In this document: positions 24,001 through 30,000 of the stretch, in pieces
How positions within the stretch are numbered: position 1 is the stretch's first letter
Layout of the letters: each line of letters opens with the position of its first letter
From: an uncultured delta proteobacterium
Lineage (GTDB): Bacteria; Myxococcota_A; Polyangia; Polyangiales; Polyangiaceae
Direction of reading: 5' to 3'
Assembly (NCBI GenBank): GCA_963841435.1
Contig: CAWJCS010000005.1
Coordinates: 288,001-352,000, forward strand
DNA length: 64,000 nucleotides
Program-made: the position numbers

Positions 24001-27000
24001 GGCACGTCCCGGCGGCTCGATCACCGAGAACAAGCCACTCCCGCCCGAGCTCAGCCCGCTCCGCGCCTTCAACGACCTCTTCAGCGGCTTCATGCCCGGC
24101 GGCACGATGAGCGATCCGCAGGCGCTCAAGATCCTGAAGCTCCGAAAGAGCGTGCTCGACTACTCGCTGCGCGAGCTCGACCGGCTCAAGACGCTCGGCC
24201 CGGCAAGCGAGCGGGACAAGATCGATAGCCACGCGGCGGCCGTTCGCAAGCTCGAAGCCCAGCTCACCGATCAGATCAGCAACGGCGGCACCGGCACGAC
24301 CGGGGAATGCACCCTGCCCCCGATGCCGGATTCTTCCCTCACCGGCAAGACGGGCGACACGCTCGGCGGGGACTACAACAATCCGGTCGCCAACCAGTCC
24401 GACGAGACGACCCACGAAGCCGTGGGCAAGGCCCATGCAGCCATCATCCGCGCCGCATTCGCCTGCGACCTCATCCGCGTGGCGACCTTCCAGTGGTCAC
24501 CCGGGACCAATCACGTCTCGTTCAAGGGGCTCGACCCGAACAGCCCGAACACGATCTACATGCACCACCCGCTCAGCCACCGCGTGGGCGACGCGAACTT
24601 CTACAACGGCGCGCGCCCCTCGACGAACGCGTACATCTGGGACGCCATGGTGAATGCCAACCGCTGGTACTTCCAGAAGACGGCCGACATCCTCAACGAG
24701 TTCAGGCTGCAGATCGATCCGCTCGATCCGATGGGCGGTAGCCTGCTCGACACCACGGTGATCCCCATGATCACGGAAGTGGCCGAGGCCGCTCACACTC
24801 GAAACGGGCATGGCGCGTTCATTTTCGGCGGCACCAAGCTCGGCATGCAGGGCGGCCAGTACAAGAGCGTCTCCGGCATCCACAATCAGTTCTGGGTGAC
24901 GGTGGCCCAGGCGTTCCTCGGCTCGAACGCCGTGAGCGCGCTGTCGGGCGAGAGCTACGTGAAGAACGGGGCGAACCCCATCGCGGGGATCTGGTCCGCT
25001 CCGGCCTGAGACGTTTCCCCGCACGGACGAGCGCCGCATTTGCGCCTCACCGACGCGTGAGGGGCGTCGAGCACGACTCGAAAGCCGTTGAGTAACGGCT
25101 TCGAAAGAGGGGGCCCCCGGCGTCCCGAAGCCTGGAAACCGTGCGGCGGGCATGGGGTCGCGCGACGTCCGCGGAAGATTTCGGTGTGGGCACCGAGGGG
25201 CGGCCCGACGTAATTTGCGGCCACCGCCGACATATTCTCCGAAAACTCGTCGCCGCGGCTCCACGTTTCTGTTACTTGACGGCCGTTGCTAGGGAACCAA
25301 GAGGCTCCCCGGGGAAAAGCAGAGGGTTACGCACGATGTCAAAGCAGACCATGCGCTTTCGAATTTTTAGCTGTGCCGTGCTTGCCGCGGGCAGCGCGAT
25401 GGCACAAGAGGCGCCGGCGGCCGGTGGCGGTGCCTCCCTATCGACGGGTGACGGCGCCAAGGCCAGCATGGAGACGAGCGGCGCGGCTCCCGCGGACGGG
25501 TCGGCATTCGAGCCCTACGAGGAGGGCTACCCGCCGGAAGGCAACGTGCTCGAGATCGGCATCTTCGGCGGCGTCCTCTTCCCGAGCCCGATCCACCAGC
25601 TGCGCAATCACGAGCTTTACCCCACTCACTACAAGTACAACTCCGGGCTCGAGGGCGGCGGGCGCCTCGGATACTACCCGCTGTCGTGGGTCGGCATCGA
25701 AGGCGAAGGCATGGGCGCAAGCTCCAAGGTCAAGGGCGTGGGCGACCTCGCCGTGCTCTTCGGGTACCGAGGCTTTCTGGTCGTGCAAGCACCGACACCG
25801 TACGTCGCCCCGTTCCTCGTCGGCGGCTACGGCAGGCTCGGCGCCGTGAGCCACGCCATGGGCGGCGACGTTGATCAGGGCTGGATGTTCGGCGCCGGCG
25901 CGAAGATCCCGATGACGCACATCCTCGGCCTGCGTGTCGATTTCCGCGACAACCTCACGCCGAACAAGCACCTCGGCAAGGGGCAGGGGCACAGCTTCGA
26001 GCTCCAGCTGGGCCTCTCCGCGACGATCGAGCGGTCGCGCAAGGAACCGCCGCCTCCGCCGCCGGATTCCGACCACGACGGCGTCGGCCGATCCGATGGA
26101 CAAGTGCCCGAACGACGCGGGCGTGGCGCCCGATGGCTGCCCGACGGACATGGACGCCGACGGCGTGCTCGACCGGGACGACTTCTGCCCGCGTGAAGCC
26201 GGGCCCGCTCCGAAGGGCTGCCCGATCATCGACCCGGATCCCGACAAGGACGGCGTGCCGCTGCCCTGCGATCAGTGCCCGGACGAGGCGGGGATCAAGC
26301 CCGACGGCTGCCCGGTGCGCGACAAGGACGGCGACGGCATTCCCGACGACCGCGACAAGTGCCCCGACGCTGCCGAAACCAAGAACGGCTTCGAGGACGA
26401 CGACGGCTGCCCCGACAAGATCCCCGAGGCGGTTCAGAAGTACTCGGGTGTCGTGCCGGGCATCTACTTCGAGAAGGGCAAGGCCGTGATTCGGCCCACC
26501 TCGAAGCGTGTGCTCGATGCCGCGGTCAAGGTTCTCGAGCAGTACCAGAGCATCTCCTTCGAGATTTCCGGGCACACGTCGAGCGAAGGCGACCCGACCG
26601 TCAACGACGAGCTGTCGCTCGCGCGCGCCGACGCCGTGAAGCAGTACTTCGTCGACAAGGGCATCGCCCCGAATCGCCTGAAGACGCGCGGCGCCGGCTC
26701 CTCGGAGCCCGTCGCCGACAACAAGACGCGTTCGGGCCGCGAGCAGAATCGCCGCATCGAGTTCAAGGTCCTGCAGTAGGCGCCCTCGGCGGCGCCGTGC
26801 CGGCGGCATCTCTGCCGGCGCGGCGCCCCGTGGCTCGACACGGGGCCCGAGAAGCCGCAGCATTCGGCCGTGGACGCCTCGGGACGAGCCGAGCACGACG
26901 AGCGTTCCGCGTCGGCGCGCGGCTTCGCCTGGACCGAAGCGCCCGAGCCGCACGCCGAGCGGCGCCGCGCCATGCTGCGCGACCATCCCGAAATTCGCGC

Positions 27001-30000
27001 CCTCTACGGCCCTTCGACGCGCACCAAGTACGTCTGCACCGCGCTCGTCGCCGTTCAGCTCGCCGTCGCATACCTCCTCCGCGACGCTTCGTGGGTGTGG
27101 GTCGTCATCGTGGCGTACGCCTTCGGAGGCGTCGTCAACCAGTCGCTCCTGCTCGCGATTCACGAGCTCAGCCACAACCTCGCCTTCCGGCGGCCTGCGT
27201 ACAACCGTCTGTTCGCGGTGTTCGTCAACCTGCCGATCGGCGTGCCCGTGGCGGAGACGTTCCGCTACTACCACCTCCTGCATCACCTCAATCAAGGCGA
27301 CGAGCGGCTCGATACCGATCTACCCACCGAGCTCGAAGGCCGGCTCACGCGCGGGCCCGTCGGCAAGCTCCTCTGGCTCAGCGTGCAGGGGCTCGCGTAC
27401 GCCCTTCGCCCGCTCATCGTCCACCCGAAGCGCCCGAGCCTCGCCGAGCTCGGCAACCTCGTCGTCGTTTTCGCCTTCGACTGGGCGGTGCTGCACTTCT
27501 GGGGCGTGAAATCGCTCGCGTACCTGCCGATCGGCTCGCTCGCCGTCATGGGTCTGCACCCGATCGCCGGCCACTACATTTCCGAGCACTACGTGTTTCG
27601 CCCGGGCCAGGAGACGTACTCGTACTACGGGCCCCTCAATCTCATCGCCTTCAACGTGGGCTACCACAACGAGCACCACGATTTTCCGTACGTTGCGGGC
27701 GCGCGGCTGCCGGAGCTCCGACGCATCGCGCCCGAGTTCTACCGCGACCTTTTGCACCACGGATCGTGGACGGCAACGCTCGTTCGCTACGTCACGCGCC
27801 CGAGCCTCGGTGGTTTTAGCCGCGTCAAACGCCGCACGCGCGGGGACGCGTCGTCGCGCACGACGCCCGCCACCCGCTGAGGCCCGAGGCTCGCGCCATG
27901 GTCCGGTCGAACCTCGCCGCGGCGCTCTTCGCGCTGGCGCTCGCCCACGCGTGCGGCGGCGAGTCGAGCCTCGTTCACTCGGGCGATGCCCGTGGGACGA
28001 ACGCCGAGGACGCCGGCGCCGCCGGCGAGGGTCCGGCGTGCGACCCGTCGAGCGAGCACCAGCGCCGCTACATCGGGCTCGGGGCCGAGTGCCCCGGCGT
28101 CGAGTTCCGCTGCTACGATCCGACGACCGTCTTCTGGAACGACTGCGGCTGCGGCTGCGAGGAAGACCCGAATTGCCCCGAAGTCTTCGACTGCTCGCCG
28201 CGCGCGAGCACGCCCTGCACGCCCGAAGAGCTCGCTCACTGTCCGTTCAGCCGGGTGCTCGAATGAGCGAGCACGCGGTTACTTCTCCATGAACCGACGC
28301 AGCGCTTCGAACCACACGAGCTTGTGCCGGAAGCCCGGAAAGCTCGCGTTGAGGCCGCTCGGGTTCGGCACGACGAAAACGCGCGCCCCCGCGATCGTCT
28401 CGGGCTTCTCGCCGGCGCCGCCGCTTCGCGGCAGGCGGAAGTACGTCTGGTAGAGGCTGAGGCCCACGAACGCCACGACGCGCGGCTCGAGACGCGCGAT
28501 CTTTCGCGCCAGCGTGCGCCTGCCGCGCGCAATCTCGTCGCTCGTGAGCTCGGCCGCCGAGCGCGTGGGCCGCGGGCAGAGGTTCGTGAGCGCTATGCCG
28601 GACTCGGCGAGCCTTGCGTCGTCTTCGTACGTGAGCCGCTTCGGAACGAGGCGCGCCTCGTCCAGGAGTCGCCAGAACGGGTTGCCGTTCCCCGCGAAGT
28701 GGTGCCCGAGAGCGGCCGAGCGCAGCCCCGGGTTGATGCCGACGAGCAAGAGCCGTGGGCGGGCGACGATCACGTCCTTGAGGCGCGGCATGGCGGACGA
28801 AGGCGCCTCGCGGGCTCAGCCGACGACGGACACGACGACGCGCCGCGTGGGGCGTGGCCCGTCGAACTCGCAGAAGAAGACGTTTTGCCACGTGCCGAGC
28901 CCAAGCTCCCCGGCCGCGACGGGGATGGTTTCGGACGGACCGACGAGCGCGCTCTTGATGTGCGCAGCGGCATTGTTGTCGATGCGATCGTGCAGCCAGC
29001 CGTCGTGCTCGACGACCATTTTGCCGAGGGCGCGCAAGAAGTCCTTTCCGATGTTCGGATCGTCGTTCTCGTTCACGGTGATCGCGGCCGTGGCGTGTGG
29101 TGTAAAGATCGATATTTGACCGTCGCGCACACCGGACTCGCGCAAAACACCGCGCACCTGGTCCGTGATGTCGACGATTGCCTGCTTGTCGCGCGTCGGG
29201 AACGTGAGGGTGCGAGCGAAGTAGGTCATGCCGAATCCTTCCCCGTTCTCGGAGCGGCGCAAGGGTTCGGCGCCGGCCCCCCGAGCCCCGAGCGTCTCCG
29301 CCCAGCGCGACGCGCCCCGGTGAAGCGTCTCACAGGGTCGGCCGAAAAAAGCACCGGCACCGCGATGCGCGCCAAGCAATCGTCCAAAAACCGCGGGAGC
29401 TTTGACCGTCCGAGCCGGGCGAGAGCGTCCATGGAACGAGCCCCGGCTCGCGTCGAGCACCGTGGCGGGTACCGCCAGATTGAAGAACCGCTCGGTCGAT
29501 TCCAGACGATCCCCCGCACGGGGCCGGGCCCGTACGGCGCGAGGGCTTCGCCGCGCCGCCGCCTGCTCGGTCTTCGCCCTTTCGACGGTCCTGGCTGCTC
29601 CAGCAAAGGCGCACCGCACGGGCATCGTGGCCAACAACTGCAGTGGCTGCCACTCCAACGAAGGGGCATCCGTCGAGGTGAGCGCGAGCCCGCAGACGTT
29701 CGAGCCGGGCGACGACGTGACCTTCACGGTGACCGTGGCCCGTTCGCAGGGGACTGCGGCCGTCGGGGGCGTCTTCGTCGGACAGCCCGCCTCGGGTGAG
29801 CTTCGCACGATCGCCGGTGAGGGTCTGACGCTCGTTCCGGGCTCGGGCCTCACGCACTCGCAGCCGAAACCCGCGGTTTCCGGTGTCGTGACCTTTCGCT
29901 TCGGCTGGCGTGCTCCTGCCGAGCCCGGCGGTGTCACCCTCGCGGTCGCCGCGCTCGCTGCGAATGGCGATGGTCGATCGTCGGGCAACGTCGCCGGCGT

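What a model noticed while it worked through the whole genome (the two positions that open the first line are those of the whole stretch)
26870..27880. Eukaryote-type sphingolipid tailoring genes (DES1, fungal C9-methyltransferase) on top of the bacterial spt-bCerS-cerR c [...]
Besides a clustered bacterial ceramide core (C3:1062789-1068043), the genome encodes close homologs of the eukaryotic delta-4 desaturase DES1 (g03911) and of the fungal sphingolipid C9-methyltransferase (g03363, C4:665155-666318), plus a 2-hydroxylase, a glucosylceramide-synthase-like gene and an inositol-phosphoceramide cluster. It predicts fungus-like modified ceramides in a bacterium.
Evidence so far: DES1 50-53% identity over 305-313 aa, E 1e-105 or better; C9-methyltransferase 45-48% over 364-380 aa, E 1e-117 or better, all five best hits fungal; SPT 42%, bCerS 40%, CerR 36%; FAH1 39%; inositol cluster g01725-g01727 35-55% to Bacteroides. 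DES family in 54% of genus, 14% of family, 1.3% of bacteria. Order sample of 41: bCerS 40, C9-MT-like 7, DES1-like 3.
(Added by a program. Inside this text positions count along the whole contig: contig position 288,001 is position 1 of the stretch shown here. "Call 12" and the like, gene names such as g00115 and contig names such as C1 are that model's own, and its searches are not shown. The text may have been shortened before it was handed on; [...] marks where a part breaks off. The agent that wrote the report below was given it as the finding of a first reader that could run no searches.)

Follow-up and report, generated by a model that had tools for sequence, protein, structure and literature searches.

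The report
Fungal-style ceramide tailoring genes in bacteria
A soil myxobacterium and many relatives carry close relatives of the enzymes fungi use to desaturate and methylate their sphingolipids, plus an unstudied desaturase that travels with the methyltransferase and probably supplies the one step that seemed to be missing.

Summary
Confirmed and extended. Window 26870-27880 encodes an intact DES-family desaturase (PF08557 + PF00487, three His boxes). Its Polyangiaceae clade groups with eukaryotic DES1 (98/93). The methyltransferase at C4:665155 belongs to the fungal C9-methyltransferase family, not to cyclopropane synthases: 43-53% identity to 120 fungal proteins and the family's signature residues.

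New here is a candidate for the missing delta-8 step, an AlkB-fold desaturase ('DesX', C3:721175-722149) unrelated to fungal delta-8 desaturases. Of 200 family genomes, 71 have both genes, 8 only the methyltransferase, 11 only DesX and 110 neither. The two are neighbours in several phyla, twice on one contig with bCerS. In one genome without DesX, a fungal-type cytochrome-b5 desaturase sits next to the methyltransferase. All 12 family genomes with the window-type DES also hold both genes.

No activity was tested. The genes are scattered in this genome, and the exceptions include near-complete genomes. C9-methyl sphingolipids were reported in Sorangium in 2011 (recalled; paper not held), so the lipid is not new, but I found no gene assignment in print. 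The scan had not noted this on other DNA.

The parts
26870..27880 (+). DES-family (sphingolipid delta-4 desaturase / C4-hydroxylase) gene, 336 aa, stand-alone. The partner genes lie outside the window: C9-methyltransferase G000 C4:665155-666318 (+), DesX G000 C3:721175-722149 (-), spt-orf-bCerS-cerR C3:1062789-1068043 (+), 2-hydroxylase C2:1031693-1032265 (+), inositol cluster C3:345300-348850 (+)
   Evidence: window gene; partners
26924..27016 (+). Lipid_DES N-terminal domain (PF08557), aa 19-49
   Evidence: 50.5 bits, cut-off 23; the family rings in 0 of 14 control genomes
27161..27175 (+). His box I (aa 98-102)
27272..27286 (+). His box II (aa 135-139)
27665..27679 (+). His box III (aa 266-270)

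Best explanation
The organism makes ceramide by the bacterial route (SPT, then bCerS, then CerR) and remodels the long-chain base in three steps that mirror the fungal pathway. The window's DES puts in the delta-4 double bond (C4-hydroxylation cannot be excluded). DesX, a di-iron membrane enzyme of the AlkB/desaturase fold with no cytochrome b5 domain, puts in the delta-8 double bond that fungi make with a b5-fused desaturase. The SAM-dependent enzyme at C4:665155 then methylates C9 and keeps the double bond, instead of closing a cyclopropane ring. A 2-hydroxylase modifies the N-acyl chain, and an inositol cluster probably adds a phosphoinositol head group. DesX plus the methyltransferase is the widespread, mobile core; the DES1-type gene is an add-on in some lineages.

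Shown: the genes, their families, the signature residues, co-occurrence and clustering. Inferred: every substrate, the position of the DesX double bond and the order of steps. My odds for the parts: DES acts on ceramide 0.8; the methyltransferase methylates a sphingoid base 0.8; DesX supplies its double bond 0.6.
For: DES: the window protein lies in a Polyangiaceae clade (100/99) that forms a starred group with 13 eukaryotic DES proteins (98/93), apart from other bacterial DES-family proteins. More distant DES-family genes sit in ceramide clusters elsewhere: bCerS-CerR-DES with a 2-hydroxylase in G154; hydroxylase-methyltransferase-DES in L063 and L394; a hydroxylase-DES fusion followed by DesX pieces in L233.

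Methyltransferase: position 243 is Gln in 120 of 120 fungal and 27 of 27 bacterial proteins but His in 43 of 56 CFA-like ones; position 110 is Ser in 113 of 120 fungal but Cys in 48 of 56 CFA-like. It matches 36 of 72 fungal-diagnostic columns and 3 of 15 CFA-diagnostic ones. All 5 distant carriers tested have bCerS.

DesX co-occurrence: family 71 both / 8 methyltransferase only / 11 DesX only / 110 neither. Order: 23 of 28 methyltransferase genomes against 18 of 122 others. Outside the order: 6 both / 2 / 3 among about 209. Genus: DES 35, methyltransferase 39, DesX 40 of 40. Control: weaker DesX paralogues do not track it; family f22 has a DesX-family hit in 21 of 22 genomes but the methyltransferase clade in 1, f17 in 19 of 23 and 0.

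DesX linkage: DesX lies within 3 kb in 4 of 117 distinct methyltransferase genes drawn by that query, against about 0.11 expected. Further cases: L196, L162, L381, L382. The Rhizomicrobium contig carries DES, DesX, the methyltransferase, glycosyltransferases, inositol synthase and bCerS (L078/L239). The Solibacteraceae contig carries it with DesX, bCerS and SPT (L084/L238). L184 has SPT-bCerS-SDR-DesX. G154 shows no DesX, and its methyltransferase follows a frameshifted cytochrome-b5 front-end desaturase. DES and DesX sit side by side in L078, so they are unlikely to do the same job. In fungi, loss of the delta-8 desaturase gives unmethylated product (PMC5954224, passage).
Against: No biochemistry. 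In this genome the genes are scattered, and the DES neighbours vary across the genus with no lipid gene among them in 19 loci. Eight of 79 family genomes with the methyltransferase lack DesX. G052 and G108 (98-100% complete) and G219 (93%) show only a delta-9-type desaturase, G099 only an unrelated one, and G243 no PF00487 match. Three closed 12-13.6 Mb genomes have DesX and bCerS but only CFA-type methyltransferases. 67 of 79 methyltransferase genomes lack the window-type DES, whereas fungi run delta-4 first. The methyltransferase is the only CFA-family gene in G000 and lacks the two N-terminal membrane helices of the fungal enzyme (PMC9325734). Gln at 243 also occurs in 9 of 56 CFA-like proteins. 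Genomes are kin, so the counts overstate independence, and the order-level DesX cut (230 bits) was chosen after seeing the scores. A related desaturase-family protein in Caulobacter is reported to be a hydroxylase (PMC11324152), so the fold does not fix the chemistry.
Confidence: 0.52

Rival explanations
1. All three are sphingolipid enzymes, but DesX does not make delta-8. It is a hydroxylase, a stand-in delta-4 desaturase for the many genomes without DES1, or a desaturase that acts after methylation, as the Fusarium delta-10 enzyme does.
For: Most methyltransferase genomes lack the window-type DES (67 of 79). The fold covers hydroxylases and desaturases alike (AlkB Z 16.6). Caulobacter CC_0202 is a desaturase-family hydroxylase (PMC11324152 passage). 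Fusarium delta-10 desaturase needs the C9-methyl group (PMC4440215 passage), which would also give co-occurrence.
Against: DES and DesX lie together in L078 and L233, and coexist in 35 of 40 genus genomes. No b5-type front-end desaturase motif was found in G000, so no other delta-8 candidate is evident. DesX without the methyltransferase (11) is about as common as the reverse (8), and includes closed genomes, which fits an upstream step better than a downstream one.
Confidence: 0.22
2. The methyltransferase and DesX form a pair that acts on other lipids (acyl chains of glycerophospholipids, ether or ornithine lipids), giving a methyl-branched or cyclopropane chain. The link to ceramide is incidental because nearly all members of the order have bCerS.
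For: bCerS is in 142 of 150 order genomes, so co-presence there says little. The enzyme is soluble like CFA synthases and is the only CFA-family gene in G000. Some carriers have only a delta-9 desaturase. True CFA-type genes also sit beside delta-9 desaturases (L354, L355, L357, L373).
Against: Physical clustering with bCerS, SPT, DES or the 2-hydroxylase in Alphaproteobacteria, Acidobacteriota and family f33. Signature residues are shared with fungal C9-methyltransferases.
Confidence: 0.14
3. The window's DES is a C4-hydroxylase giving phytoceramide, or works on a non-ceramide lipid, and is not part of a 4,8-diene pathway.
For: The DES family holds both activities; database names read 'sphingolipid 4-desaturase/C4-monooxygenase'. 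Divergent bacterial DES genes lie beside P450, 3-beta-HSD or FAD-oxidase genes, one is fused to a P450, and the 10 divergent family members are all in methyltransferase-negative genomes. The window gene has no lipid neighbours.
Against: The window-type clade groups with eukaryotic DES1 and not with the P450-linked clade. All 12 family genomes with it also hold the methyltransferase and DesX, though 4 of the 12 are one genus.
Confidence: 0.12

Closest known systems
Fungal glucosylceramide long-chain-base pathway: DES1 delta-4 desaturase, SLD delta-8 desaturase, sphingolipid C9-methyltransferase (EC 2.1.1.317)
   Same: DES-family delta-4 candidate and a C9-methyltransferase-family enzyme with 43-53% identity and shared signature residues; 2-hydroxylase present.
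   Different: Bacterial ceramide core. No SLD; the delta-8 candidate is a non-homologous desaturase without cytochrome b5. The methyltransferase lacks the N-terminal membrane helices (a second bacterial clade of 510-523 aa has a hydrophobic N-terminal extension). No good glucosylceramide synthase. Reviews call the methylation fungus-specific (PMC5954224, PMC9325734 passages).
Bacterial ceramide pathway Spt-bCerS-CerR of Caulobacter crescentus, with hydroxylase CC_0202 (CCNA_00202)
   Same: Clustered spt, bCerS-like and cerR-like genes.
   Different: Described product is dihydroceramide (PMC10191378 passage); no long-chain-base desaturase or methyltransferase was mentioned in the passages I saw.
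C9-methyl sphingolipids of Sorangium cellulosum So ce56 (Keck et al. 2011, J Biol Chem 286:12850)
   Same: Recalled from the abstract: outer-membrane sphingolipids with a C9-methyl-C20-sphingosine base in a Polyangiaceae member, which is the product predicted here.
   Different: I saw only its citation in other papers. I do not know whether it named genes, and I could not test whether that strain has these genes.
Cyclopropane fatty acid synthases (PF02353; PDB 7qos, 5z9o, 6bqc)
   Same: Same SAM-dependent fold and soluble architecture; 141-189 bits.
   Different: Below all NCBIfam CFA cut-offs (226-232 bits against 400-650). The His and Cys typical of CFA-like proteins are replaced by Gln and Ser as in fungi. 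Separate clade.
AlkB alkane monooxygenase / membrane di-iron desaturase fold (PDB 8sbb)
   Same: DesX model aligns at Z 16.6, rmsd 3.6 A over 265 residues, 14% identity; His boxes are invariant in 13 aligned sequences.
   Different: DesX matches no NCBIfam family at E 1e-4; the nearest Atlas clusters are unnamed PF00487 proteins.

Membership tests
Sphingolipid delta-4 desaturase (DES) family - window gene | N-terminal Lipid_DES domain plus FA_desaturase domain | tested here: met
Sphingolipid delta-4 desaturase (DES) family - window gene | Three His boxes with His-first third box, no cytochrome b5 fusion | tested here: met
Sphingolipid delta-4 desaturase (DES) family - window gene | Groups with eukaryotic DES1 in a tree | tested here: met
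   98/93 with 13 fungal, oomycete, dinoflagellate and algal rows; no animal or land-plant rows; midpoint root
Sphingolipid delta-4 desaturase (DES) family - window gene | Delta-4(E) desaturation of dihydroceramide rather than C4-hydroxylation | not testable with these tools
   needs an enzyme assay
Sphingolipid C9-methyltransferase (EC 2.1.1.317) - C4:665155 | Clade with fungal C9-methyltransferases, apart from CFA synthases | tested here: met
   100/98; two long CFA-labelled rows fell inside and were dropped
Sphingolipid C9-methyltransferase (EC 2.1.1.317) - C4:665155 | Signature residues shared with the fungal enzymes | tested here: met
   columns derived here from sequence-annotated, not assayed, fungal proteins
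Sphingolipid C9-methyltransferase (EC 2.1.1.317) - C4:665155 | Two N-terminal transmembrane helices, as in the Neurospora enzyme (architecture, not known to be defining) | tested here: not met
   maximum hydropathy 1.15 against a fungal N-terminal median of 2.15; PMC9325734 passage
Sphingolipid C9-methyltransferase (EC 2.1.1.317) - C4:665155 | SAM-dependent methylation of delta-8 ceramide at C9 | not testable with these tools
   needs an assay
Cyclopropane fatty acid synthase - C4:665155 | Score above curated CFA cut-offs; His and Cys typical of CFA-like proteins | tested here: not met
SLD-type sphingolipid delta-8 desaturase - DesX | Cytochrome b5 fusion and Gln-first third His box (features recalled) | tested here: not met
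   PF00487 only, third box starts with His; so 'works like' is claimed, not membership
Membrane di-iron desaturase/hydroxylase superfamily - DesX | Invariant His boxes and AlkB/SCD-like fold | tested here: met
Glucosylceramide synthase - C5:1655041 | Closer to ceramide glucosyltransferases than to other GT21 enzymes | tested here: inconclusive
   PF13506 142 bits; best NCBIfam match HpnI, 269 bits, under its cut-off of 310
Bacterial ceramide synthase bCerS / reductase CerR | Orthology to the Caulobacter proteins | not tested
   no reference sequence in hand; assignment rests on linkage with SPT

The most novel reading that the evidence does not exclude
Bacteria in several phyla run a complete fungal-style 9-methyl-4,8-sphingadienine pathway with their own, convergently recruited delta-8 desaturase family (DesX). 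The soluble bacterial methyltransferase may be the ancestral form from which the membrane-anchored eukaryotic C9-methyltransferases arose: the mixture-model tree nests fungi inside the bacterial group, although the AU test does not reject bacterial monophyly (p 0.40). The DES1-type gene would have come the other way, from a eukaryote into Polyangiaceae.
Probability: 0.25. Interest if true: 0.85.

Novelty: new variant of a known kind. Interest (0 to 1): 0.66.

Why it matters
C9-methylated sphingolipids are treated as a fungal signature, a target of antifungal defensins and a 'fungus-only' enzyme step (PMC5954224, PMC9325734 passages). If right, this names the genes behind the bacterial form and adds a new family of sphingolipid delta-8 desaturases that evolved apart from the eukaryotic one. 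It weakens 9-methyl ceramides as fungal biomarkers in soil lipidomes. It also offers a soluble 387-aa C9-methyltransferase as a structural model: my PDB search listed only CFA synthases and more distant methyltransferases. A cultured strain, Archangium minus Cbm 6, has the methyltransferase, DesX, a DES-family gene and bCerS, so the test is direct.

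Tried and rejected
Keck 2011 and Stankeviciute 2022 are not held; what I say of Keck's content is recalled. Nine paper searches (listings of up to 30 rows each, not all matches) showed no title assigning a bacterial sphingolipid desaturase or C9-methyltransferase. Subscription journals and supplements were not seen, so this is weak evidence of absence.

No genome named Sorangium cellulosum was reached. The one record labelled 'uncultured Sorangium sp.' (L058) is a 7.5 Mb MAG, so I gave its label no weight.

No DES match in viral contigs. No RNA holder was listed for the window gene, which is no evidence either way. No sigma-70-type promoter was found near the gene, and 2 terminator-like sites match chance. 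No solved structure matches DES by sequence. Foldseek gave no match at E 0.001 for DesX; VIA-align did. DesX and DES share only a weak C-terminal stretch (27 bits), so DesX is not a DES paralogue.

The direction of methyltransferase transfer is unresolved: LG+G4 gave a bacterial clade beside fungi, the mixture model nested eukaryotes in bacteria (46 of 77 rows kept), AU p 0.40. One search had a de-duplication fault and mixed in loci fetched because of known linkage; it was replaced. Rejected: glucosylceramide synthase for the GT21 gene; DES as obligatory partner of the methyltransferase; the weaker DesX paralogues as partners. Earlier scan notes gave no lead.

Full report
1. The window gene. 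Positions 26870-27880 (+) hold an intact 336-aa ORF with the Lipid_DES domain, the FA_desaturase domain and three His boxes. It lies between an OmpA-domain gene and a small Cys-rich ORF followed by a uracil-DNA-glycosylase-family gene; none is a lipid gene. The 120 best database relatives are 66-82% identical apart from the protein itself; those with an organism name are Polyangiaceae. The gene is in 35 of 40 genus genomes, with varying neighbours in the 19 loci read and third-position-biased divergence. In a 40-row mixture-model tree it sits in a Polyangiaceae clade (100/99), which joins 13 eukaryotic DES proteins (98/93). Identity to named eukaryotic references was 33-49%. These came from a search for longer proteins, so they are fused or odd gene models, and animals and land plants are missing.

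2. The ceramide core and other genes. C3:1062789-1068043 holds an SPT, an unknown ORF, a family-less 375-aa gene and an NAD-dependent reductase. The last two recur beside SPT in relatives and are taken as bCerS and CerR without a direct comparison. The bCerS-like gene is in 142 of 150 order genomes. A PF04116 hydroxylase and an inositol cluster of synthase, CDP-alcohol transferase and PAP2_3 protein, followed by MMPL, outer-membrane efflux and MlaC genes, are present. The GT21 gene is closer to HpnI, and its Pfam family rings in 12 of 14 controls; I do not count it.

3. The methyltransferase. C4:665155 gives a two-peaked score pattern in the order: a full-length clade at 45-80% identity (28 of 150 genomes) and ordinary CFA-like genes at 31-38%. 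Against 120 fungal proteins, many named sphingolipid C(9)-methyltransferase by UniRef, identity is 43-53%. It matches 36 of 72 fungal-diagnostic columns and 3 of 15 CFA-diagnostic ones. Gln243 is shared by 120 of 120 fungal and 27 of 27 bacterial rows, against His in 43 of 56 CFA-like rows; Ser110 stands against Cys in 48 of 56. From my own knowledge, that His binds the bicarbonate used in cyclopropane ring closure, which fits a methyl-olefin product. The clade is separate from CFA (100/98). The protein lacks the fungal N-terminal membrane helices (PMC9325734 passages). A second bacterial clade of 510-523 aa has a hydrophobic N-terminal extension. The root is unstable between models (AU p 0.40), so who gave the gene to whom is open.

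4. The missing delta-8 step. In fungi the order is delta-4, delta-8, C9-methyl, and loss of the delta-8 enzyme gives unmethylated lipid (PMC5954224 passages). Among methyltransferase loci, a second kind of desaturase appeared next door in an alphaproteobacterium and an acidobacterium. Its G000 homologue is C3:721175-722149, 51% identical to the alphaproteobacterial protein; I call it DesX. It has PF00487 only, no NCBIfam name, invariant His boxes and an AlkB-like fold (pLDDT 85.6; Z 16.6). A motif scan found no b5-type front-end desaturase in G000, and DesX is one of 8 PF00487 genes there.

5. Co-occurrence. Family, 200 genomes, cut-offs 1e-80 and 1e-50 set before the runs: 71 both, 8 methyltransferase only, 11 DesX only, 110 neither. 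Order, 150 genomes, DesX at 230 bits or more (cut chosen after seeing scores): 23 of 28 against 18 of 122; outside the own family 13 of 16. Phylum outside the order, about 209 genomes as inferred from the family tallies: 6 both, 2 and 3 single. Genus: DES 35, methyltransferase 39, DesX 40 of 40. The samples overlap and genomes are kin, so the Fisher p-values overstate. Weaker DesX paralogues fill families f22 and f17, which almost lack the methyltransferase. The window-type DES (60% identity or more) is in 12 of 200 family genomes, all 12 with both partners; the 10 genomes with only divergent DES have no methyltransferase of this clade. The genus counts include G192 and the order counts G123, both flagged unpublished; G192 loci also enter.

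6. Linkage. Of 117 distinct methyltransferase genes in 132 loci drawn by that query, 4 have DesX within 3 kb, 3 a DES, 2 the hydroxylase, 1 a DesX paralogue and 1 a delta-9 type; about 0.11 per family is expected. Most are unlinked. The informative cases: the Rhizomicrobium contig with ABC exporter, DES, DesX, methyltransferase, glycosyltransferases, inositol synthase and bCerS (L078/L239); the Solibacteraceae contig with methyltransferase, DesX, phosphonate genes, four more desaturases, bCerS and SPT (L084/L238); SPT-bCerS-SDR-DesX (L184), a methyltransferase in tandem with a DesX sister-clade gene (L196) and a hydroxylase-DES fusion before DesX pieces (L233), all among 53 loci drawn by a DesX query; hydroxylase-methyltransferase-DES (L063, L394); bCerS-CerR-DES (G154). 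L162, L381-L384 were fetched after I saw the linkage in coordinate tables. In G154 no DesX was found among 6 PF00487 matches, and the methyltransferase follows a frameshifted cytochrome-b5 front-end desaturase, the type fungi use for delta-8 (recalled). This is one genome of unstated completeness.

7. Against. G052, G108 and G219 have the methyltransferase with only a delta-9-type desaturase, G099 with an unrelated one, G243 with none found; G250, G256 and G342 have other desaturases but no DesX. Three closed genomes have DesX and bCerS but only CFA-type enzymes. The fold also serves hydroxylases (PMC11324152 passage), and a desaturase acting after methylation is known (PMC4440215 passages). 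Nothing was assayed.

8. What is known. I recall that Keck et al. 2011 found C9-methyl-C20-sphingosine lipids in Sorangium cellulosum So ce56; I saw only its citation and could not test that strain. Reviews still call the enzyme fungus-only and describe bacterial ceramides as dihydroceramides (PMC10191378 passage). Passages of PMC9386255, PMC11765627, PMC13161914, PMC6920741 and PMC10626005 showed no bacterial gene assignment. All papers were seen as passages or listings only, with no supplements.

9. Verdict. New variant of a known pathway; interest 0.66; confidence in the full three-step model 0.52.

Noticed in passing
window 25141-26779 (+): The OmpA-family gene upstream looks split by a frameshift: signal peptide, barrel-like part and Pro linker in the 25141-26196 frame, thrombospondin-type repeats and OmpA domain in the 25934-26779 frame.
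   Followed up: no
L242:6840-9248 (G155): An 803-aa fusion of SPT and a bCerS-like domain.
   Followed up: partly
L233:3757-5328: A 524-aa fusion of a fatty-acid 2-hydroxylase and a DES, followed by a fragmented DesX-family gene.
   Followed up: partly
L238 / L084 (Solibacteraceae contig): One 25-kb contig holds SPT, bCerS, five desaturases, the methyltransferase, PEP mutase, a TPP-dependent decarboxylase and a CDP-alcohol transferase, which suggests a methylated, polyunsaturated phosphono-sphingolipid.
   Followed up: partly
L168, L171, L170, L166, protein P0449: Divergent bacterial DES genes sit beside cytochrome P450, 3-beta-HSD or FAD-oxidase genes, and one is fused to a P450; possibly a different job such as sterol or secondary-lipid tailoring.
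   Followed up: partly
L109:4413-5900 (G154): Frameshifted cytochrome-b5 front-end desaturase directly upstream of the methyltransferase; this assembly shows other broken genes, so the breaks may be sequencing errors.
   Followed up: partly
L385, L387, L322, L107, L108: A soluble and a long, membrane-type C9-methyltransferase-family gene lie back to back in several Polyangiaceae.
   Followed up: partly
L383, L384, L162: A TetR-family regulator lies between DesX and the methyltransferase, suggesting lipid-sensing control of the pair.
   Followed up: no
L243:8847-13295 (G000 C3): MMPL transporter, outer-membrane efflux protein and MlaC follow the inositol cluster on the same strand: a possible export route for an inositol lipid.
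   Followed up: no
L001:6790-8271 (G000 C3:1062789): The SPT has about 95 extra N-terminal residues before the stretch that matches solved SPTs; the ORF between spt and bCerS has no Pfam family and is absent from some relatives' clusters.
   Followed up: no
L173, L174, L175, L238: A recurring cluster of two DesX paralogues plus a third desaturase-family gene in genomes that mostly lack the methyltransferase.
   Followed up: no
L167:6283-7196 (G146): The window-type DES is split by a frameshift here and lies beside a CDP-alcohol transferase and a radical SAM gene.
   Followed up: no
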